Below, piece by piece: positions 1 through 51,975 of a DNA stretch of 64,000 nucleotides. Both the position numbers and the translations under genes were made by a program. Source of the DNA: Azolla caroliniana (Eukaryota; Plantae; Polypodiophyta); assembly GCA_043228905.1 (NCBI GenBank), contig JBHGNT010000007.1, positions 4,030,001-4,094,000 on the forward strand. Reading direction: 5' to 3'. Each line of letters begins with the position of its first letter. Within the stretch, counting starts at the first letter, position 1. A model generated the notes under the pieces. The model had not been told where the DNA came from, did not search any database, and saw nothing but the letters and a program-made list of their open reading frames with translations.

Positions 1-2850
1 CCTCAACAAAATGGAGTGGTCGAACGCAAGAATCGGCACATATTAGAGCTGGCAAGAGCAATGATGAACAAAAAACACCTACCAAAATTGTATTGGGCAG
101 AAGCGGTCAACACAACCATCTACCTCATGAATAGGTGTACAACCTCCGGAGTGCACGACGTAATGCCCCATGAGAAGTTATTCGGGAAGAAGGCAGACTT
201 ATCCATATTAGGATATTCAGCTCAATCGCCTATGTACATATTCCTGACGATAAGAGACATAAGCTCGATCCCAAGTCGAAGAAATATATCCTCATAGGGT
301 ACTCAAGTCTCGAACAAAAAGGGCACAAGCGTTATAATCCATCTACCCGAAAAGTTTGAGTGAGCCGTGATGTCGCCTTCGACGAGTCGGCATCCTGGTA
401 CGAACCAGAGACGACTTCAACCTTAGCCCCGGTCGACCCGGATTCGGCCGACCAAGAGATAGAAGACAAAGATTGACTCAGGCACATGTTCGAAGAAAGT
501 CCAAATACAACTAGATTGAGTGGACCTCAAGAGCCTCCGAGCGATCAAAGCACACCTCAGCCGAGTCCGAAGCTAGACAAAGGGAAGGCCAAAATGCCAG
601 AATATGAGGACCTAGTCGACAACAAATTGACACACTCACTCGATAGTGAGCTTGAAGGCCTCGATATTCCTATGATCCAGACGAATGGAGCGAAGAAAGT
701 GATTATCGTTGCAAACGAGAAACTTCGTCGCTCTACCCGAGAGAAAAACCCGATTAGCCGATTCGGCTACGACGACTATATGGCATATCACTATGCCTTT
801 ATGATGAAAGTGGCGACCATCCGAGAACCGGAAACATTTTCCTAGGGAGCCAATGATCCACTATGGATTGAAGCAATGAACAAGGAGATGCAGGCGTTAT
901 GCAACAACAAGACATGTGATCTCATCCCCCGTTTTCCACACAAGAAAACGATCAGATGTAGATGGATATATAAAATAAAATATAATGCCAACGACTCAGT
1001 GAACCGCTACATGGCACGACTCATAGCTAAGGGGTATGCTCAAATACACAGAGTTGACTATGAGGAGACCTTTGCCCTAGTGGCAAAGATGACAACTATT
1101 CAAACAATCATTGCTCTCACAGATGCTAAAGGGTGGCATCTCCATCAAATGGATGTAAAGAACGCCTTGCTACAAGGAGAATTAGAGGAGGTCTTCATGA
1201 TTCAACCACCCGGTTTCGAATTGATCAAGCATCTAACCGCAGTCTACCGACTCAAGAAGCCATCGTACGAACTCAAGCAAGCACCGCGTGCGTGGCACTC
1301 GAAGATCACTCAGTATCTTCACCAAATCGGCTTTCGAATGTCGAAATCGGATAACTCTCTCTACATCAGAAGCAAGTCGGACAACCCGATTGTCATCATC
1401 CTATACATGGATGATCTGGTCATCGGGGGAAAGAATCTAGCCGACATTAGTAAGATCAAATTACTCCTATCCGGCATCTTCGAGATGAAAAATATGCATG
1501 AGCTCCATTACTTCCTCGGTATCGAAGTAATTCGGACATCAATCAGGACACTAATCTCCCAACGACACTATATCCTCACCTTACTCTACAAATTCGGGAT
1601 GATTGAGTGCAAACCTATGTCAACCCCTCTCGATCGAAACCTCAAACTCGATGCCGACTCTAGAACAGAAGAGTGCGAGGCGACTTAGTATCGTCAACTG
1701 ATCGGCAGCTTGATATATCTTACCATCACCCGACCTGATCTCAATTACTCGGTCGGCCTCATTAGCCAATTCATGCAGACTCCACGTGACATTCACCTCA
1801 ACTATGCTGAGTACTAAGGTATGTGAGTGGGATGTTGGATTTCAACATCCTCTACAAATCGGCCACACCGCTTTGGCTCGAAGGGTACACTGATGCCAAA
1901 TGGGCCGGTTACAAAGCCGACAGACGATCAACTTCAAGAATTGTCTTCTCCTTCGGCAGTAGAGTCATCTCCTAGAGCAGTAAAAAGTAGCTGACATTCG
2001 CATTGTCGAGCATAGAAGCCGGATACAGGGGCGTGGTTGTCGTAACATGTGAAGTCGTTTGGCTAAAACGAATGTTGAAGGATATGGGCGTACCCATCAA
2101 GGATCCGATTCTCCTTTATTGCGACAACATGAGCAGTATTCATCTTGCTCGGAACCTGGTGTTCCAAGCACGCACAAAGCATATTGAAGTGCATTATCAC
2201 TTCATCTGAGAGTGCGTCCAGGCGGGAGATGTCGACCTACAACACATTAGCATGAATCTTCAAGTTGTTGACATCTTCACGAAAGCCTTATGAGTCGAGA
2301 AGCTCAGGCAATTTACATCGGACCTAGGTCTAACGATATCTACATTGTCGCGCTTGAGGGGGAGTACAACAACTGACGAGTACACATTGTAGCCGAATAG
2401 CAACCGATCAAAGCCGATCAGTTGATTAGTGGACACAAGTCTACCACACAAATCGAACGAGGAGTCGAAACAATCGAAGTCGACTGACCATCCGGTTATA
2501 GAGCCAAGAAAGCCGAAACGAGCTAGAACAACGAGACAATCTCTTCGGCGATCGGAAGTTGTGTTCGACGGGGCGTGTTGAGAATCGAACCCAACTTCCC
2601 CATTGAAATGGCTTCCACAGTAACTGTGGATATACTAGGCTAGTTTTGTAAATAGCAAAAAGACAAGTTTCCCTAGTTAGTTGGTATTTAAACCAACCTT
2701 TTGTAGCTTGGTTACTATTGGATGTATTTTCCTTTTGGATTAATACAGCTTCTTGTTCTCTATCTATAAGCTTGTTCCCTCTCTCTCTCTTGTGACTCAC
2801 ACACACACATAATACCTTCCGCTGCATAGAATCACTCATGATTCTTTACA
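1..2850 (+). mobile_element. Ty1/copia LTR retrotransposon, degenerate 3' half (integrase end, RT, RNase H, PPT, 3' LTR); the 5' part lies outside the window
   Basis: ORF fragments occur in copia order. Integrase: PQQNGVVERKNRH...YWAEAVNT (1-297). RT: RWIYKIK..ARLIAKGY, LHQMDVKNA, LKQAPRAW, LYMDDL (876-1688). RNase H: YCDNMSSIHLA..RTKHIEVHYHF (2003-2209). There are several stops and frameshifts. The PPT-like TTGAGGGGGAG is at 2354-2364. Confidence 0.93.
2576..2850 (+). repeat. probable 3' LTR of the copia element
   Basis: Starts TGTTG directly after a G-rich run (GGGGCG) and contains a TATA-like TATTTAAA. It ends ...TTTACA at 2850, where composition shifts to AT-rich flank. The partner LTR is outside the window. 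Confidence 0.6.
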
Positions 2851-5800: not shown

Positions 5801-6899
5801 TGGAAAGTCGCGGAGATATTCATATTCTAGAAAGTTTCCAGCTCATATGTGCAAGATGCAAGGAAATCAAAAGTTTGATTCCACTGGGGCAATGAATCAC
5901 TTGGTTCAAAAACGTTGTACCTAATAGATTAAACAAATACAAAACCCACAAGGGAAAGGCGTTGTTATAATGCTTGATATACATATATTTGCATCTTTGA
6001 AGCATGGCCCTAAGCATGAGGGTCACAGTGTTAACTTTAATAACAATGTGACAACACACATAGATGCGCTACGATATATTAAAAGTGAAGCAAACGTCAA
6101 TCCATGAGTGAGAATAATCTTGACAGAATAAGTTCACGGCTAAACCCCAATATTCTCAAACCTAGGGTTTATAACCTCGTTAATCTTGTGCTAAACCCCA
6201 CCTCCCCCCCAATCGAAAAGGCGAGGACCAGACATTGTTATTACCCTACGCACAATGAGACGCGTTGCCTTTTCATCTTCACACAATTTGATAATAAATA
6301 TAACATTGGACACATACATACATATATGTGTGTGTGTGTGTGTGCGCGCTTAGATTCTATTACAATCCAAGTATTCACACATCCATCTCAGGACTGAATA
6401 GTAGTAACAATTCCAAACAATCCATTTTGAAAATGAACAATCCAAACAACTAATAAAAGATCCACTTTGCAGATGAACAATCCAAACACCTATAAAATCC
6501 AATTTAAGTAAAAAAATACTTGGCAAAAGAAAGCTAGCAAACACAGGAAAAATTCACCAACTATTCAAACGCATTCTGACTAAGAATCCAGTGCAAAAGA
6601 TAAAAAAAAGTGCTCAAAATTCCATCGAAGAGACTAGCAGGAAAACGAGATACATTTGCCTTTTTCTTATTGATTCTTATCCTACACGATAAAGACAGTA
6701 AGTAGTAAAAAAAGGAAAAAGCAATAGCATTTAGTGTCAGAAAGATTATCCGTTTGTCATCTCAGTCAAATGTTAAGATCAAATAATAATACTTTCTCAT
6801 CGACACTATTCAAGAAAAGGCCTTCTCCAAAGAAGACATTAGACCTCACTCTTTTCTCCTGAGAAGATGGATCTCTATTCCAAACTGGACTTAATCTAA

Positions 6900-7200
6900 A
6901 AAACAGTAACAGTAGTCTCCATTACCGCAGTAATGGCTTCTTGTAAACAATGCATTCCATTCCATTACAGTACATTACTCATGGACAATAGATAGGCCTT
7001 TCCACTTCAAATTTAGGCTTACGTGAACCGTAACTGTAGTGTCCATTACCGCGGTGATGGCTTCTTCAAAACAATACATTCCATTACAGTACAGTAAACA
7101 CATAGACAAGAGGCTTTCCCTATAAAATATGCACGAATTGAATGTATCAGTCTCAAAAGTTTATCTGCTACGATAATGGCTTCTTCAAATCAATGCAATT
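6900..7200. repeat. short array (2 good + 1 degenerate units) of ~120-bp repeat carrying the hairpin CCATTAC-N4-GTAATGG
   Basis: Hairpins at 6919-6936 and 7043-7060, with a degenerate one near 7165-7180. Paralogous to the 13010-13630 array. Confidence 0.75.
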
Positions 7201-7855
7201 CCATTCCAATAGATACAAGGCACACTCCATTACAATAGACACAAGAGAAATCACACAAACCATCCCATCAATATGGCATGATGGTTACAACATTACCCAA
7301 ATTCATGTCTTTATGTCGGCGAATATGATGCATTACAATACACAGAAACAACCACACAGGGGATACACACAAATCTGTCTGTAGTTTAGAAGTAAAATTA
7401 TGTCAGGCTTCCCTTTACCATATGAGATTTCACCAATAGAGCTACTAGAACTTATGACATAGGGTTATTTCAGTATAGAATGCACATAGAAGGACATCTT
7501 CTTTCGTATATGAAAACATCCACTCTCAAGACATCTCCTTTGGCATTTGAAAACTCCCTGTTGGGTTTGGGGTTGAAGAGGGTTAGGGTTTTAAGAATTC
7601 ACGGGATTAATCATTTATGGTATTTAGAGCTAAGAGTGCAAGCTTTTAGAGGGATAGGGCTTATGTTTGTAGGTTGGGTTATAAGATTTAGGTTTTACGG
7701 TTCAAGTTCAGTTTAAGATTTAAGTGGATTAGGGTTTAGAATGTAGGAGGATTAGGGTTTAAAGGTATTGATCCAGGGTTTAGAGTCCAAGATAGAAGAG
7801 AATTAGAAATAGGGCTAAGTAAGGGTCAGGGGTTATGGTTTTTAGGGTTGTCTGT

Positions 7856-10800
7856 CTATAACCGACCACCTCCCCCTCCACCTGATGCGTCTGCTATATG
7901 AGCACCAGCATATTCAGCAGGTGGAGGGTAGGGATAACCAGCGTTGACAAACTGAGGTGATGGATATGGAGAGAGGATTTGTAGAGGCTGAGTCAGGAGA
8001 CGATATTCTATGCCCAGATCTGAGAAGAATTTCTTCATCTCTAAGAGCAGCTCTGATCTTCTGCTCATTCTCTCACTAAAGTCCTGGAAATTAATGGTGT
8101 GCTGCATGGACACAGAGAGCTTGAGTTTATTTAGCTCCTCCAATTCTTTTACTATAACACTGAACTTGGGCTGCCAATGCTCACTCTTCTTCTCCACGTA
8201 CCTGCACATGCATAAATAAAATTATTGTCTATCAAAACCGCCTTGTGCCAGTTGAATTCAAGATTAGGGCTTCGAAGCTTGTGTCAATTGGATACAAGTT
8301 TTGGGGGTCAGAAACTTGTGCCTATAGAATGAACGACTAGAGTTTCGGGTACAGAAACTTATCTTGGATTTAGTTAATATAGAATTAGGAGCTATCGAAC
8401 CTTCCATTAGAATAGTTCAATATAGGTTACGAAGGATTTACTGGTTTGTATCTTCAGAAAATGCAAGTTTTATGACGGGTTTAGGATTTAGAAGCTTGTG
8501 GCTATAGAATGGACATCTAGGTAAATTTTGAGATTTAGAAGATTGTGTCTATTCAATGAGTGCTTAGATTAAGTCTTAGAAACTTGAGTGTTCTGTAGAA
8601 GTTTTGTGTCTTTGGAATCCATATTTAGAAACTTCGAATGGAATTTGCGTAAAGTTAAGTTTTACAGGATTGTTTCAATAGTTTGCTTTTTTACATACAA
8701 ATAAAATCCGTATTAAACCACAAAACTCACCCTGCGATCTTCTCCTTGAATGCATTAATCTTCTCTGTTGTCGTTGAGATGTGAATAGCAAAATCCAGGA
8801 AGTCTATCATATCAGGGCTCCGATACAAATTGCTGATCGGCTTTGTTGCGAGTACGGAATTGGGATAAAACACCTTCTCATTGTCCGGCTTCAAGAATAC
8901 TGTGGTCAAGATCTTCATCTTCTCCACCACTAGCTGCAATGTAACCACCACATATAGGTCAATCAATAGTCAATGCTAGGACACAGTAACATTCCTTTGA
9001 TTTTGCCCTAAAATCACCATCTAACCCTAAAACCCCAGAAATTCGAACCCCACTTCCGCCCCAACGTATTCATTTGATATAGCCCTACAGTCACCATCTA
9101 GCACAGGATCTAGTCTTCTTTTTATTAGCCCTAACATCCCTGAAATGCAAAACTCACTTCCCCCCAATATATCATCTGATCAGTATTCATTACCCTTCAC
9201 ACTAAACCCAACATTTACCATATAATACCTACAGGATTCTTTTTCTTTAAACTGAACCTATCAATACCAGAATGTGGCACATCATTCTTTGATTTTTGCC
9301 TGTAACCCTGAACCATCAATACATCTTAGACATAGTTTTTTTTTTTTGCCTGGAACGCTAGACTTACAAGATATATTCTTTAGCCTTTGCCCTAAACTCT
9401 AAATCTAACAATACATCATATAATATCCTTCAGTTAAATATACCCCCCATCAGAAGCCAGACCAAATAGACTGCCCATTTCCACTTACATGGACACCATC
9501 CACTATGCACCGATCTCCCACATCATAAGGATGCATCACAAACAAGAATATGATGGCCTCAAATATCTGTCTCGCCGTATTGCCAAACATGAAGCCAACA
9601 AGCAACAATTGAGAGCCAGCCAACATCAAGATTCGCGTGGATGCAATGCCTAGCACAAGAAGCCACACTACGATGATGATGATGGACACGATAGCACTCG
9701 CCATCCGATGCAACTCTTTCACTGCAGTATTCGTATCATTCAAAGAGTGAGCTAGTGCCCTCCTCTCTTGATATGCCTTCACCTGCATACATTATAGTAG
9801 AGATCGTTAGGGTTACCCCCTCTGGATCTAGCTGTGTTTATAAGTTTGTAAGCACCTATTCAGTCACAACTAAATTTGCAAGGCTCCACCCCTTACCCAT
9901 TATCATTACGTAGGAGAAAACCTATGTACACAGGTCCTGCCAAAGTCTGTAGGACTAAGCCTTGTAACCATTCTCTATAAGAGAAAACATGCATACACAG
10001 CTCCTGCTTCCAAGCACTGCCATTTTATATACTATATCACATACATCCTAATCTTTCGGGTTTCTTGCTCTAGATCCAGTAGCGTTTTAGCTTGTATGCA
10101 TTTCTATATTGACACCATCAAGACCATAATCACATGTACAGGAAAACCTACATGCGTTTATCAAGAGCTTGGAAATCCTTACCACCCAATTTTTCAATGC
10201 CTTTTTGGTAATCTTGTCCGGGTCTTTTGCACACTCAAATAGACGCATCACATTGTTAATCTCCTCTTCAGGTATAAATCGTAAGAGGTCCTCCCTGGTA
10301 ATGAACCTGGGTTGGCAAAATGGTCAAAACCAGATCAAATATTACAAACAAACCATGGAAAGATATAATGCTTCTAATTTCTTCTTCATGTAATGGTTGA
10401 AATGAGAATTTTCGAAACACAAGAAACCAAGGACACTTTCCCCACTGTGATTCCTACATCATTGGAATATGAGCTTCACACTACCACTAGTTATTACATT
10501 AATTTTTCCCAGCTATTTATACATGACTGTGACTGCAATGGTATTCTTACCGAGAGTCTCGTCGAGCCACATTGCTGAAGATCAACTTGGCAGCAACCTT
10601 GGCTTGGAATTCACTATCAATCTCAACTTCACGGGAGCTGGTTTCAAATGTATCAACCTCCTGATCAATTGTTGTTACCAGAGCCCGAAATCCAGGGTGT
10701 TTCACCACACCCATAAGCGTGGTTATCAATCCCGCTGAGATATCTTGGCGTGAGAGCTTCCGAATCTTATTCCAATGGTTACTAACCTTGTCATTTGTGG

Positions 10801-12184
10801 GGGTAATGGGCACGGACCCCTTACCAGTAGTACTCATTCTCGAGGGCCACCGAGTCAGGGAGGGCACTTTCTCAGATACTGAGGTTCCTCTCTGGGACAT
10901 TGATGATACACCTGGATCCTCACGGTAAAACAAATGAAGAGATGGGCCTGACAAAGTTTCAAGGATGTGTTGGTTAAACAAGGACTCTTGGATTCGTTCA
11001 AAGAAAGTGCTAACATGGAATGATGAAGCAAGAGATTTCACCATAAGAACCTTAGCTAACCAGATGAATGCAGCTATAACAAAACAGTCAAAAAGACTTG
11101 TCATAACTGATATAATCCGATGGCTTTTTGTGGATGTTTCAACGACTGGATCAATTATGAGTTTCCATGCAAGGAGAGTTAAACCCAACCAGAGACAGTT
11201 CTGGACCCCCTTTCTCAAACCGTACACAAAATAAAGAAGCTTCTTGCGAACAAGAAAATTCTTTTCAAAGATAAATATAAGTAGATGGATGAGCCAACCT
11301 GAGACTAATCTTCCGCAGAAGATAACGAGAACCATTAAAATCCATTTCCAGAGCTCTAAGCCCCATGTTTCTTTTCCTTTAAGCGATTTCACTGTTAGAG
11401 AGCAGAATAAACCTCCAAAAATGAGGACGAAAGCTAACCACTGTAGCACTGTGAGAATCTTTGAGTTCCCATGCCTGAACTCCATATCTATGTCTATGTC
11501 TTTAAAAGGGTCTTCGTCATCTTCATTTCCTGTAAATTTATGCTGATCTACTGGTGCTTCGTTGCCTACGGAACTGTTCTTTGGATTAGCTAACGATGAC
11601 GGGAGAGGAGGAACTTGAACAGAAACCTCAATGAGCCTTGACTTTGTTTTTGCCTTCTGAACAAACTCTCTTGCATGAAGAAGAGCAGTTGCAGCTGTGG
11701 CAACGATGCTCCCTTTGGTATCTGGAGCTTCTACAGCCCTATGAGATATACCTGAATGGCCAGGAGACTTTACTGTAGAGCTTTCCATTAAAGCTGAGGG
11801 ATTAGAACTTTGACGATCTCCATTGTCATAGTAACTTGCAGACTCTTCTTTTAAATTAAAAGCGCTGTTACACGAATTTGATGTAGACTTAAGGTTTTGC
11901 TGCAGATCTCTATAAAAGACAGAATTAGCTTTCTTGTCAATCTGAGTGAGATTGTTCTGGATTTGTCTCAGGTTCTGATCGATTGTGGCTTCTTCCGTAT
12001 CAATAAATGTTGCAGAAGCGGTGTTCTTTTCCTTCTCTTGATTAAAATTTCCAGCGTCCTTCTTCAAAACCTCACAGCGGTTCTCTGACGATATTATCTG
12101 TTGACTTGAAGTTGTGAAAGAAGCCGCTTTATTCTTTTGATCCCCATTTTCAGTGTGAGCAGAGAGATTTTGAAGACTCTCCAT
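7856..12184 (-). CDS. MSL: MscS-like mechanosensitive ion channel (plant MSL4-10 group), copy B, N-terminally truncated, ~866 aa
   Basis: Exons 12184-10551, 10306-10183, 9782-9489, 8933-8731 and 8201-7856, all GT-AG and phase-consistent. Motifs: WGLELWKW, LYFVYGLRKGVQNCLW, LASSFHVSTFFERIQESLFNQ, FMFGNT, MHPYDVGDRC, YPNSVLATKPISN. Confidence 0.85.
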
Positions 12185-12776
12185 AGGTGCCCAAGAGGAA
12201 GATGAATTTGAAGACGTAGAAGTAGAGGAAGATGGAGAAGATGAAGAAGATGGAGATTGGAGATGGAGATGGTGATGGATTAAATCTGTAGTACTGATCA
12301 GCTGTTATATTTACTTTCTCGTGAGCTGAGGAAGAAATATGCGATAGAGAGGTTATATTGTTATCCAGATATTGCAAGAAATTGGCTCTGGTTTAACGAT
12401 TTGTTTAAGGCAGAAGGAGAAATAATGAGACTCGAGCAGGTGATCAGAGAGAGGGTCGGAGATGGTGATGGAGGTTTAAGACCCTGGTCTCGGGAACAAT
12501 GTTATCAGTGACTAACACTAATATTATCAAGGTCAAGAGAATGGTGATGAGGAACAGCTTCTGAGCTTTCAAGGCTTCGTTGACAAAGTTGAGACAGACT
12601 ATATTCACGTCCAGGAGAAGGGTTAGGGTTTAGGGTTTAGGGTTTAGGGTTTAGGGACAGACTATATTCACTTCCAGGAGAAGGTTTGCGTTGCTTTACT
12701 CCTGAGACGAGGTCGCCATGGCCGCCATTTTCTGCTGTTATGCTAACATTGTCTGTGGTATTAAGCTGTGCGGAAG
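12185..12776 (-). pseudogene. decayed remnant of the MSL N-terminal coding region upstream of the copy B start codon
   Basis: Aligns to copy A 18562-19149 but carries indels and a telomere-repeat insertion. Homology stops abruptly at 12776. Confidence 0.8.
12593..12684 (+). repeat. interstitial telomeric repeat (TTTAGGG)~5 flanked by a 29-bp direct duplication
   Basis: GACAGACTATATTCAC[G/T]TCCAGGAGAAGG occurs at 12593-12621 and 12656-12684, with a 34-bp telomeric insert at 12622-12655. Copy A has one uninterrupted copy (~18992-19020). Confidence 0.92.
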
Positions 12777-13009
12777 GTGGTTATACTGATTCACTTATAT
12801 ATACCACACGATAAAGACAGTAAGTAGAAAAACGAAGAAGCAATAGCAATAGTGTCAGAAAGAATATCCGTTTCTTATCTCAGTCAAATATGATCAAACA
12901 ATAATACTTCATTATTGACACTATTCAAGTAAAAGGCCTTCTCCAAAGAACACATTAGATTTTTTCTGTTGAGAGGATGGATGTCTACTCAAATTTGGGC
13001 TTATCTGCA

Positions 13010-13630
13010 AAAACACTAAAAGTAGTCTCCATTACCACAGTAATGGCTTCTTCAAAACGATATGCATTCCATTACAGTACACTCATGGACAATAGGCCTT
13101 CCCTTTTCAAAATTGGGCTTATCTAAAAAACAGTAACAGTAGTCTCCATTAACGGAGTAATGGGCTTCTTCAAAACAATGCATTCCATCACAGTACAATC
13201 ATGGATAATAGGCCTTCTTCCCCATTCAAAATTGGGCTTATCCAAAATACACAAACAGTAGTCTCCATTACCACAATAATGGTTTCTTTAAAACAATGCT
13301 ACACATGGACAACCGGCCTTCCCTAATCAAAACAGTAACAGTACTCTCCATTACCGCAGCAATGGCTTCTCCAAAATACACAAACAGTAGTCTCCATTAC
13401 CGCAATAATGGTTTCTTCAAAACAATGCTATACATGGACAACCGGCCTTCCCTAATCAAAACAGTAACAGTACTCTCCATTACCGCAGCAATGGCTTCTC
13501 CAAAACAATGCATTACAGTACACTCATGGACAAGAGGCCTTCCCTATACATATGCACGAATTGAATGCATCAGACTTAAAATTTATTCTGCTGCGGTAAT
13601 GGCTTCTTCAGACCAATGCAATTATTCCAT
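13010..13630. repeat. tandem array (6 + 1 degenerate units) with CCATTAC-N4-GTAATGG-type hairpins; includes a near-exact ~129-bp tandem duplication
   Basis: Hairpin cores at about 13029, 13146, 13265, 13348, 13394 and 13477, with a degenerate one near 13590. The segments ~13243-13371 and ~13372-13500 are nearly identical. Confidence 0.85.
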
Positions 13631-14509
13631 TCCAATAGACACAAGGACAATCCACGTCTCTATACATCTGGACGAACTTAGAGCATCAACTTAAGGAAAT
13701 ATTCAGATCCAAGAGCAATCACACAAACCATCACATCAATATAGCTTGATAGATACCACATTACACAAATTCATGTCTTTATGTCAGCGAAAATAATGCA
13801 TTACAAAAGATGAAAAATCCACACAGGGATACACAAATCTGTCTGCAGTTTAGAAGTAAAATTATGTCAGATTTCAAAGCCAAGGATAACAAAGAAGAAG
13901 GTTAAACCTAAATCAATCGGACCTGGGACAAGGGAGATTGAGAGTCAGAGCTCTATCGATCACCTCATGGCTTGAGTTCAGAGGAGAGGTAACTTGAATC
14001 CAACTAAAATTGCCCCAATTCCATCTACCTACCATTATTATTATACAAACTAAAGAAAGGCTTCGCTTTTTACCATATGAGATTTCACCAATAGAGCTAC
14101 TAGACCTTATAATATAGGGTTGTTTAAATATGGAATGCACATTGAAGGACATCTTCTTTCGTATATGAAAACATCCACTCCCAAGCCATCTCCTTTGGCA
14201 TTTGAAAAGTCCCTGTTGGGTTTGGGGTTGAAGAGGGATAGGGTTTTAAGAATTCGCGGGATTAATCATTTATGGTATTTAGAGTGAAGAGTGCAAATTT
14301 TTAGACGGATGGGACTTATGGTTGTAGGTTAGGTTATAAGATTTAGGTTTTACGGTTCAAGTTCAGTTTAAGATTTAAGTGGATTAGGGTTTAGAATGTA
14401 GAATGATTACGGTTCAAAGGTAGTGATCCAGGGTTTAGAGTTCAAGATATATGGAATAAGAAATAGGACTAAGTAAGGATCAGGGATTATGGTTTTTAGG
14501 ATTGTCTGT

Positions 14510-17500
14510 CTATAACCGACCTCCCCATCCACCTGATGCGTCTGCTATATGAGCACCAGCATATTCAGCAGGTGGAGGGTAGGGATAACCAGCGTTGACA
14601 AACTGAGGTGATGGATATGGAGAGAGGATTTGTAGAGGCTGAGTCAGGAGACGATATTCTATGCCCAGATCTGAGAAGAATCTCTTCATCTCTAAGAGCA
14701 GCTCTGATCTTCTGCTCATTCTCTCACCAAAGTTCTGGAAATTAATGGTGTGTTGCATAGTCACAGAGAGCTTGAGTCTATTTAGCTCCTCCAATTCTTT
14801 TACTATAACACTGAACTTGGGCTGCCAATGCTCACTCTTCTTCTCCACATACCTGCACATGCATAAATAAAATTATTGTCTATCAAAACCGCCTTGTGCC
14901 AGTTGAATTCAAGATTAGGGTTTCGAAGCTTGTGTCAATTGGATACAATTGGATACAAGTTTTGGGGTTCCGAAACTTGTGCCTATAAAATGATCGACTA
15001 GAGTTTTGGGGACAGAAACTTATGTTGGGTTTAGTTAGTATAGAATTAGGAGCTATCGAACCTTCTATTAGACTAGTTCAATATAGGTTACGAAGGATTT
15101 ACAGGTTTGTATCTTCAGAAAATGCAAGTTTTATTACGGGTTTAGGATTTAGAAGCTTGTGGCTATAGAATGGACATCTAGGTAAATTTTGAGATTTAGA
15201 AGATTGTGTCTATTCAATGAGTGCTTAGATTAAGTCTTAGAAACTTGAGTGTTCTGTAGAAGTTTGTGTCTTTGGAATCCATATTTAGAAACTTCGATTG
15301 GAATTTGCGTAAAGTTAAGTTTTACAGGATTGTTTCAATAGTTTGCTTTTACATACAAATAAAATCCGTATTAAACCACAAAACTCACCCTGCGATCTTC
15401 TCCTTGAATGCATTAATCTTCTCTGTTGTCGTTGAGATGTGAACAGCAAAATCCAGGAAGTCTTTCATATCAGGGCTCCGATACAAATTGCTGATCGGCT
15501 TTGTTGCGAGTACGGAATTGGGATAAAACACCTTCTCATTGTCCGGCTTCAAGAATACTGTGGTCAAGATCTTCATCTCCTCCACAACTAGCTGCAATAT
15601 AACCACCACATATAGGTCAATAAACAGTAACATTCCTTTGATTTTGCCCATCATAAGCTAGACCAAATAAAACTGCCTTCCTCTTACCTGGACGCCATCT
15701 ACTATGCACCGATCTCCCACATCATAAGGATGCATCACAAACAAGAATATGATGGCCTCAAATATCTGCTTCACCGTATTACCAAACACAAAGGCAACAA
15801 GCAACAATTGGGAGCCAGCAAACACTAGGATTTGCGTGGATGCAATGCCTAGCACAAGAAGCCACACTACGATGATGATGATGGACACGATAGCGCTCGC
15901 CATGCGATGCAACTCTTTCACTGCAGTCTTCGTATCATTCAAAGAGTGAGCTAGTGACCTCCTCTCTTGATATACTTTCACCTGCATACATCATAGTAGA
16001 AGTCATTAGGGTTTCCCCTTCTGGATCTAGCTGTGTTTATAAGTTTGTAAGCACCTATTCAGTTACAACTAATGTTGCGAGGCTAAACCTTGTACCCATT
16101 ATACGTCCCAGAAAAACCTATGTACACAGGTCCTGGCTAAGTTTGTAGGGCTAAACCTCGTACCCATTATCAATACGTAGGAGAAAACTTTATCTACACA
16201 GTTCCTGGCAAAGTCTGTGGGGCTAAACCTTGTAACCCATACGAGAAAACATATGTACACAGCTCCAGCTTCCAAGCACTGCTATTTTATATACTATGTC
16301 ACATACATCTTAATCTTTCGGTTTTCTTGCTCAAGATCTAGTAGCGTTTAAGCTTGTAGCATTTCTATATTAACAGCATGAAGGCCAACATGTACAGGAA
16401 AACCAACATGCGTTTATCATGAGCTTGGAAATCCTTACCACCCAATTTTTCAATGCCTTTTTGGTAATCTTGCCCGTGTCTTTTGCACCCTCAAATAGAC
16501 ACATCACATTGTTAATCTCCTCTTCAGGTATAAATCGCAAGAGGTCCTCCCTGGTAATAAACCTGGGTAGGCCAAACGGTCAAAACCAAATCAGATATTA
16601 ACAACAAACGATGGAAAGATGTAATGCTTCTTATTTCTTCTTCATGTTTTGATTGAAATGAGCATTTCTAAAACATAAGAAACCTGGGACATTTTTTTTC
16701 CCCACTGTGATTCCTACGTCATTGGAAATCAGGGCCTAACAAGTTGAGCTTCACACTACGATGAATTTGTACATGGTGTTTTTACCAAACATTTCTACAT
16801 GACTGCCAATGTGATGGTATTGTGCACGAAATTACATCACAACATTCTTACAATAGCTTACCCAGAATCTGGTTGAGTCACATTCCTGAAGATCAACTTG
16901 GCAGCAACCTTGGCTTGCAATTCGCTATTAATCTCGACTTCCTGGGAGCTGGTTTCAAATGTATCAACCTCCTGATCAATTGTTGTTACGAGTGCCCGAA
17001 ATCCAGGGTGCTTCACCACACCCATAAGCTTGGTTATCAATCCCGCTGAGATGTCTTGGCTTGAGAGCTTCCGAATGTAATTCATCTGAATCTTATTCTG
17101 GTTGTTACTAACCTTATCATTTGCAGGGGTAGTAGTACTCACTCTCGAGGGCCTCCGAGTCAGGGAGGGCACTTTCTCAGATACTGAGGTTCCTCTCTGG
17201 GACATTGATGATACACCTGGATCCTCACGGTAATACAAATGAAGAGATGGGCCCAACAAAGATTCCAGGATGTGTTGGTTAAACAAGGACTCTTGGATTC
17301 GATCAAAGAAAGTGCTAACATGGAATGATGAAGCAAGAGATTTCACCATAAGAAGCTTAGCTAACCAGATGAATGCAGCGATAACAAAACATTCAAAAAG
17401 ATTTGTTATAACTGATATAATCCGATGGCTTTTTGTGGATGTTTCAACGACTGGATCAATTATGAGTTTCCATGCAAGGAGAGTTAAACCCAACCAGAGA

Positions 17501-19395
17501 CAGTTCTGGACCCCCTTTCGCAACCCGTACACAAAATAAAGAAGCTTCTTACGAACAAGAAAATTCTTTTCAAAGATAAAAATAAGTAGATGGATGAGCC
17601 AACCTGAGACTAATCTTCCGGAGAATATAACGAGAACCATTAAAATCCATTTCCAGAGCTCTAAGCCCCATGCTTCTCTTCCTTTAAGCGGTTTCAGTGT
17701 TAGAGAGCAGAATAAACCTCCTAAAATGAGGACGAAAGCTAACCACTGTAGCACTGTGAGAATCTTTGAGCTCCCGTGGCTGAACTTCGTATCTGTGTCT
17801 ATGTCTTTGAAAGGGTCTTCGTCATCTTCATTTCCTGTAAATTTATGCTGATCTACAGGTACTTCATTGCCTGCAGAACTGTTCTTTGGATTAGCAACTG
17901 ATGGCGGGAGAGGAGGAACTTGAACAGAAACCTCAATTAGCCTTGACTTTGTTTTTGCCTTCTGAACAAACTCTCTTGCGTGAAGAAGAGCAGTTGCCGC
18001 TGTGGCTACGGTGCTCCCTTTGGTATCTGGAGCTTCTACGGAATCTTCGCAATTATTAAGTTCTGTAACCCTATGAGATATACCTGAATGGCCAGGAGAC
18101 TTTACCCTAGAGCTTTCCTTTAAAGCTGAGGGATTACTATTTCGACGATCTCCATTGTCATAGTAACTTGCAGACTCTTTCTTTACATTAAAATCGCTGT
18201 TACACGAATTTGATGTAGACTTGACAATCTGTTGTTTATGACGTTGCATAATATCATCCATAGACTTAAGGTTTTGCTGCAGATCTCCATAAAACATAGA
18301 ACCAGTTTTCTTGTCAATCTGAGTAAGATTGTTCTGGACATGTCTCAGGTTCAGATCGATCGTGGCTTCTTCCGTATCAATCAATGTTGCAGAAGCGTTG
18401 TTCTTTTCCTTCTCTTCATTAAAATTTCCAGCGTCCCTCTTCAAATCCTTGCAGCGGTTCTCTGACGATGTTATATGTTGACTCGAAGTTGTTAAAGAAG
18501 CCAATTTATTCTTTTGATCCCCGTTTTCAGTCTGAGAAGAGAGATTTTGAAGATTCTCCATAGGTCTGGGCTCTGAGTATGTTGCCGAAGAGGAAGATGA
18601 AGTTGAAGACGTGGAAGTGGAGGAAGATGAAGAAGATGGAGACGGAGACGGAGATGGATTAAACCTGCAGTACGGATCAGCTGTTATATTTACTTGCTCG
18701 CGAGCTGAAGAAGAAATATTCGATAGAGAGGTTATGTCGTTATCCAAGATCAGGCGAGAAATTGGCTCTGGTTTATTAGCGATTTCTTTGGGGCAGAAAG
18801 AGAAATCATGAGACTCGAGCAGGTGATCAGAGAGAGGTCGGCGATGGCGATGGAGGTTTAAAACCCTGGCCTCAGGAACAATGTTATCGGTGACATTACT
18901 AGTGTCGTGGTTAACAATAATATTATCGAGGTCTAGAGAATGGTGATGAGGAACAGCTTCTGAGCTTTCATGGCTTCCTCGACGAAATTGAGACAGACTA
19001 TATTCACGTCCAGGAGAAGGTTTGCGTTGTTGCTTTACTCCTGAGACGAGGTCGCCATGGCCGCCATTTTCTGCTGTTATGCTAGCATTGTCTACCGTGA
19101 CAGTGGTAGATTCTGGCGATGACGGAGTTTGTATTAAGCTGTGCGGAAGCTCATTATGTTGAGTATCTTCAGGTTTAGTAGGAAGATGATCAGGACTGGC
19201 TAGCTGCTCCCAAATTGCGTCGTTTCTCTCTGATAATAGTCCTGAGCTTAATCGTTGCTTCTGCACAGACTCTGCAGGATCATCGGTGGGTATGGCGTCC
19301 TTGATGATTTGGCTGGACTCCACAACCCTTACTATCACGGCTTCATTATCGACACCATTGCCATCGCCATCACCATAGCTAGCTTCAGGTTTCAT
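14510..19395 (-). CDS. MSL: MscS-like mechanosensitive ion channel (plant MSL4-10 group), copy A, full length, ~1165 aa
   Basis: Exons 19395-16862, 16562-16439, 15981-15688, 15591-15389 and 14852-14510, all GT-AG and phase-consistent. Same diagnostic motifs as copy B, plus a long Ser/Pro-rich disordered N-terminus. Confidence 0.93.
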
Positions 19396-19984
19396 GGCAG
19401 AATTGCGCAGTTATATAAGCTGTGAGAGGAGAGTATTTGACGCGCCAGACTAACAATAAAACCCTAAACAGAAATAACAAGGAAATTTTGATCCTTTCTT
19501 CTTCCTCCTGCTTTCTTTCTTACTCGTCCTATTCCTTGTATCCTTCTTCATCTTTAATCTCATTCTCTGCAGAACCAATCTGAGCAGAGACTTATGGACT
19601 CAGCAACCGTTCCTTGCCTACATTAGAGCTCTGAACGGGATAATCGTGAAGCAGAAAGCTTGCCGAACCTCATGAGATCAGTGGCGATGGCGAGGATGAG
19701 CAAGCAAGCAAAGCACAAACAACGAGCAAGGGATTTTCTAGGGTTTCAGGAGCAAAACTGCAGGACACATCAAAATTAGGGTTTCAAAGTTTTGGCGGTC
19801 TTTCAGGGGGGGTTTTCCCTGGGGAGGCGAAACCCTCTCTAGAGTATCAAACGTTAGGGGGTTTCCAGCGATGGAGACTGGGGGGGCTAAAGAACTTAGG
19901 GTTTGGGTTTAGGGTTTAGAAGCTAAAAACCCTAGACTCAGAGCGTGGGGTATGGAATCGAGGAATTTGATGGCTGGCGCACTT

Positions 19985-39635: not shown

Positions 39636-40067
39636 AGAAAGAGAAGAAGAAGAAGAAGAAGAAGAAGAAGATCACTTTGACTTGACTAGACTAGACTCCG
39701 AGAGCAAGACAATGTCGTCTGCGTAGAGTAAGAGAGAAAGAGAAGAAGAAGAAGAACACTTTGACTAGACTAGACTAGACTCTGGGTGGAAAGAGACAAA
39801 GGGAGAGAGAGACAGGGGAGGGTGTTTACCATACTCGGATGATTGAAACAAACTCGAATGCGAATGCACGTATGACGTATGGTACGTATGGTTATACTAT
39901 ATATGTATGTGTGTGAGAGGGAGAGAGAAAGAGAAGAAGAAGAAGAAGAACACTTGACTTGACTTGACTTGACTAGACTAGACTAGACTAGACTCTGGGT
40001 GGAAAGAGACAGAGACAGAGAGAGACAGAGGGAGAGAGAGAGAGAGAGACAGGGGAAGAGAGGGGAG

Positions 40068-43000
40068 ATGGAGTTCGAAGCTCGCAAGCTCCATACCCTC
40101 AGAGCTCTTTCCTCACCTCTCCCTGACAAGTCTCGCAAGGGAGATGTCGACGCTCCCATCGCTGACCTTATCCATCGCATCAACAAACACCCTTCCTTCT
40201 TCACCACAAGTTCTTGCTCAGGTCGTATCTCCATCTCTACTTCCTCGCCTTCTTCTTCTTCTTTTGCGCTTTCTTCCGGGCCTGGGAAAGACGCAGATGA
40301 TGATGTCGTCAGTAGCTCAGATCCGAAGCTTGAGAAAGTTATCCCAAATCAGAAGAAGAAGAAGAAGAAAGGAGGAGATTGGAGCTTTGTTTCTCACTAT
40401 CAAGCTGATCCGGAGGAGGTGTTGCGAGCTTTGATGCAAAATTGTTGTAACTTTGAAGAGGAGAGAAATAAAGAACAGAATGGTGGTAAGGTTGAAAAGG
40501 AAAGGTATATTGACCAGCAGAAGTACACTGAAATGAATGGTGGTAAGGTTGGAGAGGAAAGTGAGGACCGACCGAAATGTGGTATGTATGAAGAGGTAAT
40601 GGATGGTCAACAAAAATCTGGTAAAAATGAAGAAGAAAGATATATTGAGCAGCAGAATTGTGGTAGCTTAATGGTGTTCAGGTTCGAGCCTTTCATTCTT
40701 GCCGCCGAATGTCGAGACATTGCCTCAGCTCAAGCTTTGGTCTCTTGTGCCATATTTTCAGGATTCCGAGAATCAGGTAACTGTTTATGTTTCATAAATA
40801 ATCATAATCTAGGAGGCATTGGGAATCTGGTAATTGTTCATGTTTCATAATATAATCTAAATCCCGGGGATTGTGAGTATCTGATAACTGTTTATCATCT
40901 GTAAACTAGTCTAAGTCCAAGAATATGGTAACTGTTTAGGTTTGAGAGGCTCTTCTGGATTCCTACGATTCTTGTAGTAAATAATTTGTTATGCTCTTAA
41001 ATTTTCAATCTCGAAGATTCGAATAACTATTTATGTTCATTTAGTCCTAATCCTGGAGAATCAAGGACGAGCTGATGGCTAAAGCTAGTAATTGACAAAA
41101 TTTTAATTTATTCTATAAAATGAGGTGAAGAATTACAATTAGAAACATGCTGACATGAGGAACTCCGCCTTATCATGCACAAACACAAGCTTTTATCAGC
41201 CAAGTGACTGTGAAATTCCACAAAAGGATTAGCTTTGAGATTAACAAAAGTGTCCAGGTTATGCTGCACAGCTTTCTGAATTCACTGGTCACTGGTCAAT
41301 CTTTTTATAGGCTTAACCTTGTGCGCACTTGTCTTAATCAGTAAATATGTATACCTTCATATAGACTTAGACTTAATCTTAATCTCGTGTTAATGGGTAT
41401 GGAGTGACATGCATGTGAAAGAAAATGGGTAATGATTAATGTAATAATTTACGTGAGGAAGAACTCAGAGAATCTAATAAAATCAACCATACCAATTAGT
41501 GAGTGACTGATGATGTCTGGAACTGTCCACCTGTGTGCTCCAAATGTAGAGGTTAGATGACTATTGAGACATATATTGGAAGGACTGGCACCGCTGTGTC
41601 TTGTATACATCAGGGAGATGTATTATGTAGAGTTGAGATTGTAACAGTTGCTCATCCATCAAATTGGACGCTGTCCATAATAAACAATTGGTTTGTTAGA
41701 TTACTGTTGCCATGATACATACCATCTGTGGGTGTTGCCCCATGCCCTGTCACCGCAAGGATGGGCCTCGGCATGGCTGGACCCACATTAGCCGTCTCAT
41801 AACCATATGCTACCTGTTTATGCTCATGTGTCCTAATCCTCAGAATGTAATCACTGTTTATGCTCATATAGTGTTAATCGACAATTGATTATCTAGATTT
41901 CATATGCTCTGTATTTATCTCAACTAGGATTGTTCATTAATTCCAGAATCTTGCTCCTCTCAGTCAAGTGTGGTGGCTTTTTCTTAATTTATGTGATTTA
42001 AAGCATACTTTTTACAAATTCTTCTGTTCTTTTGATGGAGATATAAGCTTTTGTTTCTAAATCCTAAATGAGTAAAGCAAAGGGATACTTAACCTGATTA
42101 GTGATGGATTTTTAGGTATCACCAGTATGAGGAAACGCATAATTGTCGCAGTCCGCTGTTCGATTCGTATTGAGGCCCCTATTGCAGTAGGAGACCATCT
42201 TCTCGTTAGCCAAGATTATATAAGATTTCTTGTAGCGATTGCCAATTCTAAACTGGCAAGCAATCATCAAAAAACAAACAAGTTTTTATCTTCTTTCATC
42301 CAACAGGTGTCAAGAATGTTCACTTTGCTTATGATTTTTGTCAAGAAGACATTCTGAATGATATTTTTCTGCTTCATTATGATGTATTTAAATAGGTCGA
42401 GGCTACTTTACATGGAGAAGACATTGAACCCAGAGTCTCTTTCAAACAACAAAAACATCTAAAGCACGAAGAAAAATGTTACCTTTCAGAGAAATGCAAT
42501 ACTAAATCAAGAAGACTTCAATCCAACGACAGAAAGCTTTCAGAACTTGAGAAGAGACAGCTGCGCCTCATATCTAGGCTCGATGAAGCTGAAAAGAAAC
42601 TTCATGATTTATTTCGTGTACCTGTCTTAGATGTGGAGGAGTTGCCTGATTTGAAAATGGGAACGCGAAGTACTATTTCAGGTCAACAATCTAAACAAGG
42701 TCTGGAGGCGTTGTCTTATTCAAAAATGGGAGTGGGGAGTATTATTCCCGAACGACAATCTAAACAAATTAGAGAACCAGAGTTCAAGTTACCTCTAAAA
42801 GGTAGGTAGGTATTCTCATGCTTCATCATTGATGGATAAGGTTTTTAGCTGATGATTTCATTTTTACATGGTTAGAGGCATATTTTAGTTTTCTTATGCC
42901 AACAATCACACTGCCTATTTAGAAGTGCTAATAGGACATTGCATTAGGAACTAGTATTTTCTCTTTCTTCGTTTTGTTTATTTGAACACTGCATAAACAA

Positions 43001-43665
43001 TGCAGCTTATTAGTATGGTCCTATATGATTTTATTATGTGTACCTGCTGAATATTTTTTTTGTTGCAAAATTTTCTATTTCCACAAGATTAAAAGTGTAC
43101 AAATAGACTGTTTCTATGAGTTATGAAGTCATAAATTCATGTGTTTGGGTAATATTTAATTAAAAGTTTTCCCTAATGCAGATCTGAAAGGACAAAATTT
43201 AAGTGTTTGAGTGTTACGTCGGACAAGCTATATCGCTGGGGTCACTCTACATGTTCCTTGCATTGCGTTCCAGGATTTCCTTCAAGATCACTGCTGAGTT
43301 TTGGTGGGTATGGGGGCTCTCTCAGGCAAGGACGTCAAAATGACTTAGTTCTTCTAACACTTGATGATAGTGTGGTGCAGTCTATTGATGCCGAAAATCC
43401 ACCCACCCCAAGGATGGGTCATACAGCATCACTTGTTGGCAGTAAGATGGTTGTGATAGGAGGTAGGGAGGATCCAAGCAAGCCATTAGGTGACGTTTGT
43501 GTGCTTATGCTTGATAAAATGCAATGGCAATACCCTCAAATGGAAGGTGTTTTCTTTCCTCCAAGGTATTTCTACCTGTTATCTATTGTTCATAATATGA
43601 ATCAGAAAAATCTCTGAAATGCCTCTTCAAGTTTTGTTGTTTTTCCAAATGCCTGTGTCCAGACC

Positions 43666-43747
<82 letters not shown>

Positions 43748-50307: not shown

Positions 50308-51975
50308 ATGGCTGAAGACGGAGAAGAAGATGACTATATGGGCGACCTCTCACGCTTTCTTCAACCCCAAGAGCTTCTCAAATCAACGCAAATCTCTGTA
50401 AGTCGTTTTCTCTCTCTCCATGTTTCTGTGTATTTCTGTATGCCTTCTTCACATATTTCTACTTTTCCTTATCCTTTTTTTAAAGTATGTTTCCATGTAT
50501 TTTTCTATGTCTTTTCTATTTCTTCTACAGATTCTATATGTCTTTCATTCTGCTCAACTTGAACCTATGGTGTTTTCAGGAAGCTTCATACCCATCTCAA
50601 TCTCAAGGTCTCAGAAAGAATCAGAGAAAGAAATTGAGGACTGAAATACTTCAGAAAACAGAGGATGAAAAGCGATCTGAAGGTCTGAGCTCTGCCATTT
50701 CTTCTTCTAACATTGGATTCAAAATGCTACAGCAAATGGGTTATAACCCAGGGAAAGCTCTAGGGAAACATGAGCAGGGAACCTTAGAGCCTCTAAACCT
50801 AGATGTGAAAAGGTCACGGTCGGGTCTTGGAAGAGACGAAATTGAAAAAGCAAAAGCGATTGCAAAAGCAAAAGCAAGGGAAATTGCAGATGAGGCGAAA
50901 AAAGGTATCACTAAACAAAAGAGGGATGAGTTGGAATCAGGTTTTCGGGAGAGGAGGAAGAGTAACTGGCAAGGTTATAAGCTTTTCCGTGATTATCGGA
51001 AAGCTCAAACAGCTCTTCAACATCTCGAAGGATCTCCTCGACAACACAAAGTTCCCCAAGAAGATGAGTTGGAGAATCTCGAAGGGAAATACTTACAAGA
51101 TGGTAGTGGTAAAGATGCAGGAGATGGTCCTGAGGAAAATGAGTCTGATGAGGAAATCGAACTTCAGGTGTGTTTTTTGTTATAATCCTTCTATTTCTTC
51201 TTGTTCGATGTTGTTTTATGTTTAAGATGATACAGACATGAATATTAAATTGTGAACATTGACCCGGAATTTTGGGTTGAATATAAGGCAAGAATGCCAC
51301 CTTTGGGCATATAGTTTAGGTCAAGTTCCAAAGGTATGAAGCCCGCAAAAAGGGTGAAATAATATGGGTTCTAAATTGTGGCTAACATTATGGGCTATAA
51401 AATAGTGAGGTATTCGTCACTCCCTATATACCAGAGTTCGGAAAATATGCATCAAACATGAACACATAACATACAGTACATACAATGATGTACTTTTTTA
51501 TTCTTAATGGCTGAAATATTTCATCAAAATCCATGGCCATTATAAATGGGCCACACATTATATATATGAATTAGTCATAACAGTTTGCTGCAATTGATGA
51601 AAAATTTAAGCTCTCCTTAGGAATGATGCCTGCCTCATCGTGGTTATATTTTTTAGTACATCTTGCTAAATAAAATGATAGAGAAGTGATCAACTTATTG
51701 AATGCTTGATTGAAATTTATTCATTCTTTTACTTTTAGTGAAGTCTACTAATGCTGATGTCTCTTAATGTAGGACCTTCTAGATTTGTTAACAAGGTTGC
51801 GATCGGAATATTTCTATTGTTTGTATTGCGGGTGTAAGGTAAGTGTACAGTTACTTATGTGCAAACCTGATCATTTGGTAAGTCTGTAAAAATGAAGTTT
51901 TCTTTTGCCTCTCAGTATGAGAATGCGGATTCGTTGCAATCTAACTGTCCTGGCATGGACGAAGAGGATCATTAA
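50308..51975 (+). CDS. GPATCH11: G-patch domain-containing protein 11-like (G-patch + DUF4187-type Cys C-terminus), 267 aa
   Basis: Exons 50308-50397, 50580-51167, 51773-51838 and 51916-51975, all phase 0. N-terminal EEDDYMGDLS, G-patch SNIGFKMLQQMGYNPGKALGK..G...P......RSGLG, and C-terminal LRSEYFYCLYCGCKY..LQSNCPG..EEDH. Confidence 0.92.

What the first reader, a model, noticed from the sequence alone, without database searches (positions are those of the whole stretch)
6684..19149. Tandem duplication created a promoterless, N-terminally shortened MSL channel that appears to be under selection
Seen: the unit ~6684-12776 is duplicated as ~12806-19149, with the breakpoint inside exon 1, so copy B lost the promoter and the first ~82 codons. 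The leftover coding sequence above Met 12184 has decayed through frameshifts and a telomere insert. Below that Met the whole 866-codon frame and all 8 splice sites are intact and every indel is in-frame, e.g. loss of MDDIMQRHKQQIVKS between TAGACTT direct repeats. Known: the disordered N-terminus of Arabidopsis MSL10 regulates signalling and cell death separately from conductance. Inference: copy B is an expressed channel lacking ~280 N-terminal residues and driven by a newly recruited promoter.
Basis: partly seen in the sequence, partly recalled or inferred. Interest (0 to 1): 0.7.

Follow-up and report, generated by a model that had tools for sequence, protein, structure and literature searches.

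The report
Expressed, head-trimmed fern channel gene duplicate
In a fern, a stretch-sensing channel gene was copied in tandem without its promoter and first 82 codons; the copy is still transcribed and spliced, keeps an unbroken reading frame, and likely makes a working channel without the family's conserved N-terminal motifs, probably from a new promoter built in its own dead coding sequence.

Summary
Two minus-strand group III MSL genes lie in tandem: A (1165 aa) and B (866 aa). B lost A's promoter and first 82 codons; 5 of 8 indels in the leftover 588 bp shift the frame, against 0 of 5 in the ORF. B is expressed: contigs of three studies carry B letters; one run joins all four introns. A's N-terminus is ancestral: B lost five short motifs kept in fern orthologs. 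Selection holds the frame, but amino-acid constraint is only moderate (pairwise dN/dS 0.48-0.59; about 0.4-0.5 at conserved columns), and gene conversion blurs it. The MSL10 analogy is weak: B keeps 242 N-terminal residues, more than MSL10's 164, in a fern-only clade. New here: B's leader is the longest ATG-free run in the window (all three downstream ATGs of A lost), with a telomere insert giving four telo boxes, and four site II motifs upstream that the paralogous flank lacks. This suggests a promoter built after duplication; the start site is unmapped. Ordinary kind, unusually legible case.

The parts
6678..12776 (-). Copy B of the tandem unit (downstream copy, lacks the ancestral promoter and first 82 codons)
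   Evidence: self-BLAST; alignment
7856..8201 (-). B exon 5 with stop codon
   Evidence: splice joint in X1, X2, X3
8731..8933 (-). B exon 4 (MscS beta domain, PF00924)
   Evidence: joints
9489..9782 (-). B exon 3 (TM5, pore helix TM6; F650 and G653 match AtMSL10 F553 and G556)
   Evidence: joints
10183..10306 (-). B exon 2 (cytoplasmic linker; B-specific changes C866R, G870C, T874P, G875D in A numbering)
10551..12184 (-). B exon 1 coding part: 242-aa N-terminus, TM1-TM4, linker; starts at the Met equal to A Met279
12185..12776 (-). Decayed relic of A codons 83-278, now likely 5' leader; no ATG from 12718 to 12185; transcribed at least up to 12423
   Evidence: X2 record 13
12594..12684 (-). 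35-nt telomere-repeat insert (12622-12656; four telo boxes on the sense strand) between two copies of a 28-nt target
12777..12805 (-). Duplication junction with TATATATAAG (TATAWAWR), absent from the paralogous flank
12996..13238 (.). Four site II motifs (TGGGCY), three in an amplified 118-bp repeat; only such cluster in the window; none in the paralogous flank 6678-7404
12800..19149 (-). Copy A of the tandem unit
14510..19395 (-). Gene A, 1165 aa; exons 19395-16862, 16562-16439, 15981-15688, 15591-15389, 14852-14510
18562..19395 (-). A codons 1-278, with five short motifs shared with fern orthologs; missing from protein B
19739..19917 (-). Four telo boxes upstream of A's ATG (ancestral 5' region)
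7856..8933 (-). Low-divergence tract (exon 4, intron 4, exon 5): likely gene conversion, B letters in A

Best explanation
B is a partial tandem duplicate of a fern group III MSL gene that is transcribed and spliced, keeps an open 866-codon frame, and likely encodes a working tension-gated channel subunit translated from the former Met279. Unequal crossing-over inside exon 1 (inferred) left B without promoter and start. B then likely gained its own start site in or just above the relic, most likely near the telomere insert (about 12600-12720), helped by telo boxes and upstream site II motifs (inferred). The relic became a 5' leader: it took frameshifts freely and lost its three downstream ATGs (shown), which would let ribosomes reach Met 12184 (inferred). 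The protein keeps all six helices and the gate, but lacks five N-terminal motifs conserved in ferns, so it would escape whatever partner binding or phosphorylation they carry (inferred). Constraint on its residues is moderate, and gene conversion trades tracts with A.
For: Expression: X1 record 3 joins B exons across three introns with 0 other letters where A differs at 53 sites, and X1 shows joints for all four introns; X2 and X3 have B-type records; X2 record 13 covers 12157-12423 with 0 differences where A differs at 29 sites plus a 16-nt gap. Introns have no depth in X1-X3 in the purely intronic bins. Frame: 0 of 5 ORF indels shift the frame against 15 of 17 non-coding ones (Fisher p=0.0008) and 5 of 8 in the relic (p=0.075); all 5 frameshifts in the relic, p=0.0002-0.001; no stop where 3.7-5.4 are expected neutrally, P=0.005-0.02. 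Conserved columns outside low-divergence tracts: 5 changes of 13.5 expected at t=0.05, P=0.008. Polarity: five motifs present in A and in 3 of 5 orthologs fully, 2 of 5 in part, none in B; phmmer E=1.6e-5 of A 1-278 to P0002. Leader: 12185-12718 is the only ATG gap of 500 nt or more among 3225 ATGs on both strands; 3 of 3 ATGs lost, naive P=0.015-0.05. X1's word share of 0.61 fits a transcript reaching about 12420 or beyond (indirect). X1 shows no A letters at the listed coding sites, a weak hint against pure read-through. Gate residues intact.
Against: No start site, protein or current was observed. Pairwise dN/dS is 0.48 (CI 0.34-0.63), or 0.59 (0.42-0.82) with kappa 2.5, the range expected if B were near neutral and A constrained. 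Against four fern orthologs 23 of 64 differences are B-derived, 9 A-derived, 32 unclear; six B changes hit columns at least 90% conserved (D698E, G870C, K904N, K957R, Q984H, E989K). In unconverted parts the no-stop test is not significant (P=0.05-0.12) and the strictest conserved-column test gives P=0.13. Met 12184 has C at -3, a middling context. The promoter motifs were noticed after the fact; three site II copies come from one repeat; telo boxes are also common in the 3' regions of both copies. Logan contigs drop rare variants, so A's scarcity in X1 is not shown. The runs' RNA status is a guess of the index, backed here only by the splice joints.
Confidence: 0.62

Rival explanations
1. B is transcribed but decaying: selection has relaxed, the protein is dispensable or impaired, and the frame survives through past selection, chance and repair by gene conversion from A.
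For: Pairwise dN/dS 0.48-0.59, 0.64 outside low-divergence tracts; 23 vs 9 polarised changes, p=0.02; changes at near-invariant sites; at least four B-lineage indels; conversion tracts exist.
Against: No frameshift or stop in 2598 bp while the relic took 5 frameshifts in 588 bp; the unconverted N-terminal part is as diverged as the relic yet in frame; the conversion seen in the coding region runs from B into A, not A into B; with 101 broader homologs the asymmetry shrinks to 8 vs 8 or 6 vs 3; three polarity calls conflict with the closer protein P0121.
Confidence: 0.18
2. B has no promoter of its own: its RNA comes from read-through of A's transcription across the 1.7 kb between A's stop and the junction, then processing.
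For: B lies directly downstream of A on the same strand; 3' regions are transcribed far (X2 B-type record to 7185; a distal joint at 7093); one X3 contig runs over the upper end of the laid stretch.
Against: A dicistronic RNA would hardly be translated at B, yet B's frame is held and its leader ATG-free; ATG loss begins only below 12719; X1 holds B letters at all listed coding sites with no A letters (weak, contigs drop minor variants).
Confidence: 0.12
3. B works mainly as a modifier subunit: it joins A in mixed heptamers and dilutes A's N-terminal motifs or shifts gating, rather than acting alone.
For: 767 of 858 aligned residues identical; both copies occur in X2 and X3; MSL10 is a heptamer (PMC10560256) and MSL9/10 form heteromers (PMC10400277 passage); partial duplicates can act on the parent (SRGAP2C, PMC3449122).
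Against: X1 shows B with little A (weak); no binding test was run. Compatible with the best explanation rather than exclusive.
Confidence: 0.06
4. The tandem is an assembly error joining two haplotypes.
For: The junction was not covered by any read test; a metagenome scan for it found nothing.
Against: B's broken leader is itself seen in RNA (X2 record 13), both letter sets occur together in X2 and X3 and in two ENA proteins; about 10% divergence with large indels; no alternative haplotig in the genome.
Confidence: 0.02

Closest known systems
Plant group III MSL channels (AtMSL4-10; structures AtMSL10 8jwe, Flycatcher1 7n5d)
   Same: Six helices, large cytosolic N-terminus, MscS beta domain, gate Phe and kink Gly, four introns (PMC10560256, PMC10552396 passages).
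   Different: Fern-only clade on a long branch; A's N-terminus is unusually long (524 aa before the EDDPF motif, orthologs about 345-355), B's (222) is in the range of seed-plant MSL6-like proteins (193-270).
AtMSL10 N-terminal 'death' domain
   Same: Disorder-prone composition (54% vs 46-58% disorder-promoting residues, with slightly different residue sets, PMC10400277) and short conserved motifs within it.
   Different: No orthology shown; MSL10 121-164 aligns to the part B kept; no MSL10 match to the lost part was reported; none of the best 120 homologs is named MSL10.
Partial gene duplicates with recruitment (Katju 2012, PMC3449122; Rogers 2017, PMC5460883)
   Same: Breakpoint inside the ORF, longer copy ancestral by outgroup, derived copy expressed, gene conversion with the parent.
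   Different: Nothing new is added to the ORF; the copy's own dead coding sequence becomes the leader, with a telomere insert in it.
Telo box plus site II promoters (Gaspin 2010, PMC3022908) and telomere repeats inserted at repaired breaks (PMC7215372, PMC2246262, listings only)
   Same: AAACCCTA on the sense strand in the 5' region, redundant TGGGCY upstream; the pairing has been used to find cryptic Pol II promoters; insert flanked by a target duplication.
   Different: Spacing of 340-610 bp between site II and telo boxes is wider than in the rp-gene layout; shown for Arabidopsis and rice, not ferns; here the elements appear to postdate a duplication.
Ceratopteris tandem MSL paralogs (KP509_02G100000-100600, 38G068100)
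   Same: Same fern clade, neighbouring locus tags, shorter N-termini; 5 of 5 keep at most one of the five motifs.
   Different: Independent duplications; their annotated starts may be incomplete and were not checked.

Membership tests
Group III MSL (MSL4-10 type) | MscS beta domain (PF00924) | tested here: met
   B exon 4: 26 bits, cut-off 20.2
Group III MSL (MSL4-10 type) | Six TM helices after a large cytosolic N-terminus | tested here: met
   Hydropathy peaks from 243 to 638 and alignment to AtMSL10 over TM1-TM6, E 1.6e-56 and 1.2e-34; TM6 is placed by alignment, not by the hydropathy scan in B
Group III MSL (MSL4-10 type) | Gate Phe (F553) and kink Gly (G556) | tested here: met
   B F650 and G653 (residue roles from PMC10560256)
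Group III MSL (MSL4-10 type) | Four introns | tested here: met
   joints; norm from PMC10552396
Group III MSL (MSL4-10 type) | Heptamer with tension-gated current | not testable with these tools
   needs patch clamp
MSL9/10 clade | Orthology to AtMSL9/10 | tested here: inconclusive
   A and B fall in a fern-only clade, 100/100, but no MSL9/10 row was in the tree; the split is placed in seed plants
MSL9/10 clade | Lost region equals the death domain with its phosphorylation sites | tested here: not met
   MSL10 121-164 aligns to B 198-243, which is kept; A's own exon 1 was not aligned to MSL10
Partial tandem duplicate | Breakpoint within the ORF and longer copy ancestral | tested here: met
Partial tandem duplicate | Derived copy expressed from recruited regulatory sequence | tested here: inconclusive
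   Expressed; start site unmapped
Telo box / site II promoter | Telo box with redundant site II motifs in the 5' region | tested here: met
   4 telo boxes, 4 TGGGCY; spacing wider than usual
Telo box / site II promoter | Telo box near the transcription start and needed for activity | not testable with these tools
   contigs cannot show a start
Unprocessed pseudogene | Disabled frame or splice sites, or no transcript | tested here: not met

The most novel reading that the evidence does not exclude
A promoterless duplicate was rescued by a promoter assembled after duplication: telomerase-type repair wrote four telo boxes into dead coding sequence, a repeat expansion supplied site II motifs upstream, and selection cleared the leader of ATGs. 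The result is an independently regulated channel without the fern N-terminal motifs, a natural deletion mutant beside its parent.
Probability: 0.25. Interest if true: 0.72.

Novelty: new member of a known kind. Interest (0 to 1): 0.47.

Why it matters
The pair is a natural experiment on two open questions. First, what the long disordered N-termini of plant MSL channels do outside MSL10: A and B are 89% identical and differ mainly by five fern-conserved motifs. Second, how a promoterless duplicate regains expression: each step can be read here against the paralogous sequence (telomere insert, junction TATA, site II repeats, ATG loss) and tested by reporter deletions. A telomere insert shown to act as promoter element of a new gene would test the telomerase model for telo-box origin of PMC3022908. 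If these motifs are incidental, the case is an ordinary partial duplicate.

Tried and rejected
No RNA holder was on record in the run index; RNA status rests on splice joints. Four listed runs with share 0.00 and four unlaid runs (X5-X8) are not used. X1 has no cover from 11424 to 12226; a hole proves nothing. Reads were laid only on 6600-12616, with 4 of 12 runs, so copy A, the telomere insert and the junction are untested by reads; table 3 showed 40 of 313 rows and table 8 hid 168 pieces. A synonymous/non-synonymous count on the shown rows (about 10.5 vs 15.5) was dropped as ascertained. Junction scan of metagenome contigs: 0 hits. Search for short relatives of the N-terminus: only P0121. 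P0001 and P0122 are A/B mosaics with no private letters, likely assembly chimeras; used only as a sign that both letter sets exist. Conserved-column tests inside low-divergence tracts were discarded, since conversion lowers divergence there. Whether organism D (X4) is an outgroup or an A ortholog could not be settled, so no branch dN/dS was computed. The region labels 'TM1-3' and 'TM4-6' are loose; MSL10 numbering is used here. Weak Pfam hits NET2A_C and DUF3040 are below cut-off. No structure or complex was predicted. Earlier findings: none. Paper searches (0 papers) listed no report of this duplicate or of a telomere insert serving a duplicate's promoter; only listings were seen and the library omits most subscription journals. 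No supplements were opened.

Full report
Setting. The window lies on contig C7 of a 523-Mb genome. The closest named proteins are from the ferns Adiantum and Ceratopteris, so I call the organism a fern. A protein search of the genome found only these two close copies; the next MSL, on C1, is 47% identical and falls in another clade.

Observation. Self-BLAST shows the unit 6678-12776 repeated at 12800-19149. Both copies carry a five-exon gene on the minus strand with GT-AG sites throughout: A, 1165 aa from ATG 19395, and B, 866 aa from ATG 12184. B's homology ends 82 codons into A's exon 1. The 588 bp between the breakpoint and Met279 have 8 indels in B against A, 5 of them frameshifts, and a 35-nt telomere repeat between two copies of a 28-nt target. 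The retained ORF has 5 indels, all multiples of three. Neutral divergence is about 0.10 (relic 0.10, introns 2-3 0.11-0.12, intron 1 0.21).

Which copy is derived. A 1-278 matches fern ortholog P0002 (E=1.6e-5) and carries five short motifs; 3 of 5 orthologs have all five, 2 have two or three, B has none. The motifs were picked by eye from the alignment. A related organism (X4) and protein P0121 have the 27-nt segment, and X4 a loose end like the 45-nt segment, so these are losses in B. A is also unusually long (524 aa before the EDDPF motif, orthologs about 345-355); B's 222 is ordinary for the family.

Expression. Four of 12 listed runs were laid on 6600-12616. X1 has joints for all four introns, and one 734-nt record crosses three of them with no difference from B where A differs at 53 sites. 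X2 has both types: a B-type joint at intron 3, B-type records 10, 12 and 13, and A-type records 9, 11 and 14. Record 13 spans Met 12184 and the relic up to 12423 exactly, frameshifts included. X3 has four B-type records with 0 differences where A differs at 15, 13, 9 and 5 sites. So B is transcribed in three studies and spliced with B letters in two. X1's share of B words (0.61) is 3.3 standard errors above a transcript ending at 12300 and fits 12420 to beyond 12800; this is indirect. Contigs cannot show a start, a strand or a level.

Selection. The frame is held: 0 of 5 frameshifts against 15 of 17 in non-coding parts (p=0.0008) and 5 of 8 in the relic (p=0.075); all five frameshifts in the relic, p=0.0002-0.001; no stop where 3.7-5.4 are expected, though only P=0.05-0.12 in unconverted parts. 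Residue-level constraint is moderate. Pairwise dN/dS is 0.48-0.59, which cannot by itself separate a constrained B from a neutral one. Against four fern orthologs, 23 of 64 differences are B-derived, 9 A-derived, 32 unclear; three calls conflict with P0121. Against 101 homologs, outside low-divergence tracts, B departs at 5 of 122 columns conserved in 60% or more (13.5 expected at t=0.05, P=0.008) and at 4 of 67 columns conserved in 90% or more (7.5 expected, P=0.13); A departs at 3 and 2. The gate is intact: F650 and G653 match AtMSL10 F553 and G556.

Gene conversion. Divergence drops to 1-4 per 200 bases over 8384-8886, intron included. At 10 of the 40 shown rows, X2 and X4 share a letter where this genome's A equals B, which points to B-to-A conversion in exons 4-5 and the TM part of exon 1. 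X1's B allele carries nine A-type letters in a row at 7630-7676, likely the reverse event, or a chimeric contig.

The promoter. Four features differ from the paralogous sequence. (1) A has three out-of-frame ATGs below the insert site; B has lost all three, and kept the three above it. The resulting 534-nt ATG-free run is the only one of 500 nt or more on either strand of the window. (2) The insert gives four telo boxes on the sense strand; A's own upstream region also has four. (3) The junction holds TATATATAAG, absent behind B; TATAWAWR occurs 32 times on this strand, so chance is possible. (4) Four site II motifs lie at 12996-13238, the only such cluster among 39 sites, with none in the paralogous flank; three come from one 118-bp repeat. 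Gaspin et al. (PMC3022908, passages) report that telo boxes do not activate alone but act with site II motifs, lie mostly within 50 bases of the start in translation genes, may be written by telomerase at promoter breaks, and with site II mark cryptic promoters. I therefore think a start near the insert most likely. The insert could be cause or consequence of transcription there. All of this is motif inference made after the fact; direction of change is unknown for (3) and (4).

Comparison. B meets the testable features of a group III MSL. It is not shown to be an MSL10 ortholog: fern-only clade (no MSL9/10 row), and the MSL4-8 / MSL9-10 split is placed in seed plants (PMC10552396, passages). 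MSL10's N-terminus is 164 residues, disordered, with short conserved binding regions (PMC10400277, passages) and interacts with the C-terminus (10.1101/726521, abstract). B keeps 242 residues, so it has lost motifs, not the whole tail. Partial duplicates are common and can gain functions (PMC3449122, passages; PMC5460883, abstract). Five Ceratopteris paralogs also keep at most one of the motifs, so N-terminal erosion after duplication may recur in this clade; their gene models were not checked.

Verdict. A real, expressed partial duplicate whose frame is under selection: a new member of a known kind, interest 0.47. Shown: structure, polarity, transcription, splicing, frame retention, ATG loss. 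Inferred: own promoter and its place, translation, channel activity, loss of regulation. The boldest reading, a promoter assembled around a telomere insert, has probability about 0.25.

Noticed in passing
window 10947-11298: One X1 contig (depth 11.9) skips 351 nt in frame inside B exon 1 with GT-AG ends, removing residues 296-412 (part of TM2 to TM4). A lacks the acceptor AG. A 5-nt direct repeat at both ends allows a template-switch artefact.
   Followed up: partly
window 7093-8736: One X2 contig joins exon 4 to the distal 3' repeat region, perhaps an alternative last exon.
   Followed up: no
window 8934-9488 vs 15592-15687: Intron 3 is 555 bp in B and 96 bp in A; X4 has the long form, so A lost about 460 bp.
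   Followed up: partly
window 6163-19917: 16 of the 18 TAGGGTTT sites of the window lie in the MSL locus, including 3' UTRs and introns.
   Followed up: no
window 19400-19950: A's upstream region has nine ATGs within 1.1 kb and an acceptor-like pyrimidine-CAG at about 19420; a 5' UTR intron is likely.
   Followed up: no
window 39987-44921: Exons resembling a tRNA wybutosine synthesis gene with kelch repeats (name recalled, not searched).
   Followed up: no
window 846-1688 and 55334-57208: Reverse-transcriptase fragments, copia-like and LINE-like by recalled motifs.
   Followed up: no
window 50484-51185: Exon with a G-patch-like motif (recalled).
   Followed up: no
L003 (G000:C1:8140551-8144183): Second group III MSL of the genome with an MSL4-8-like N-terminal motif, sister to Adiantum P0066.
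   Followed up: partly
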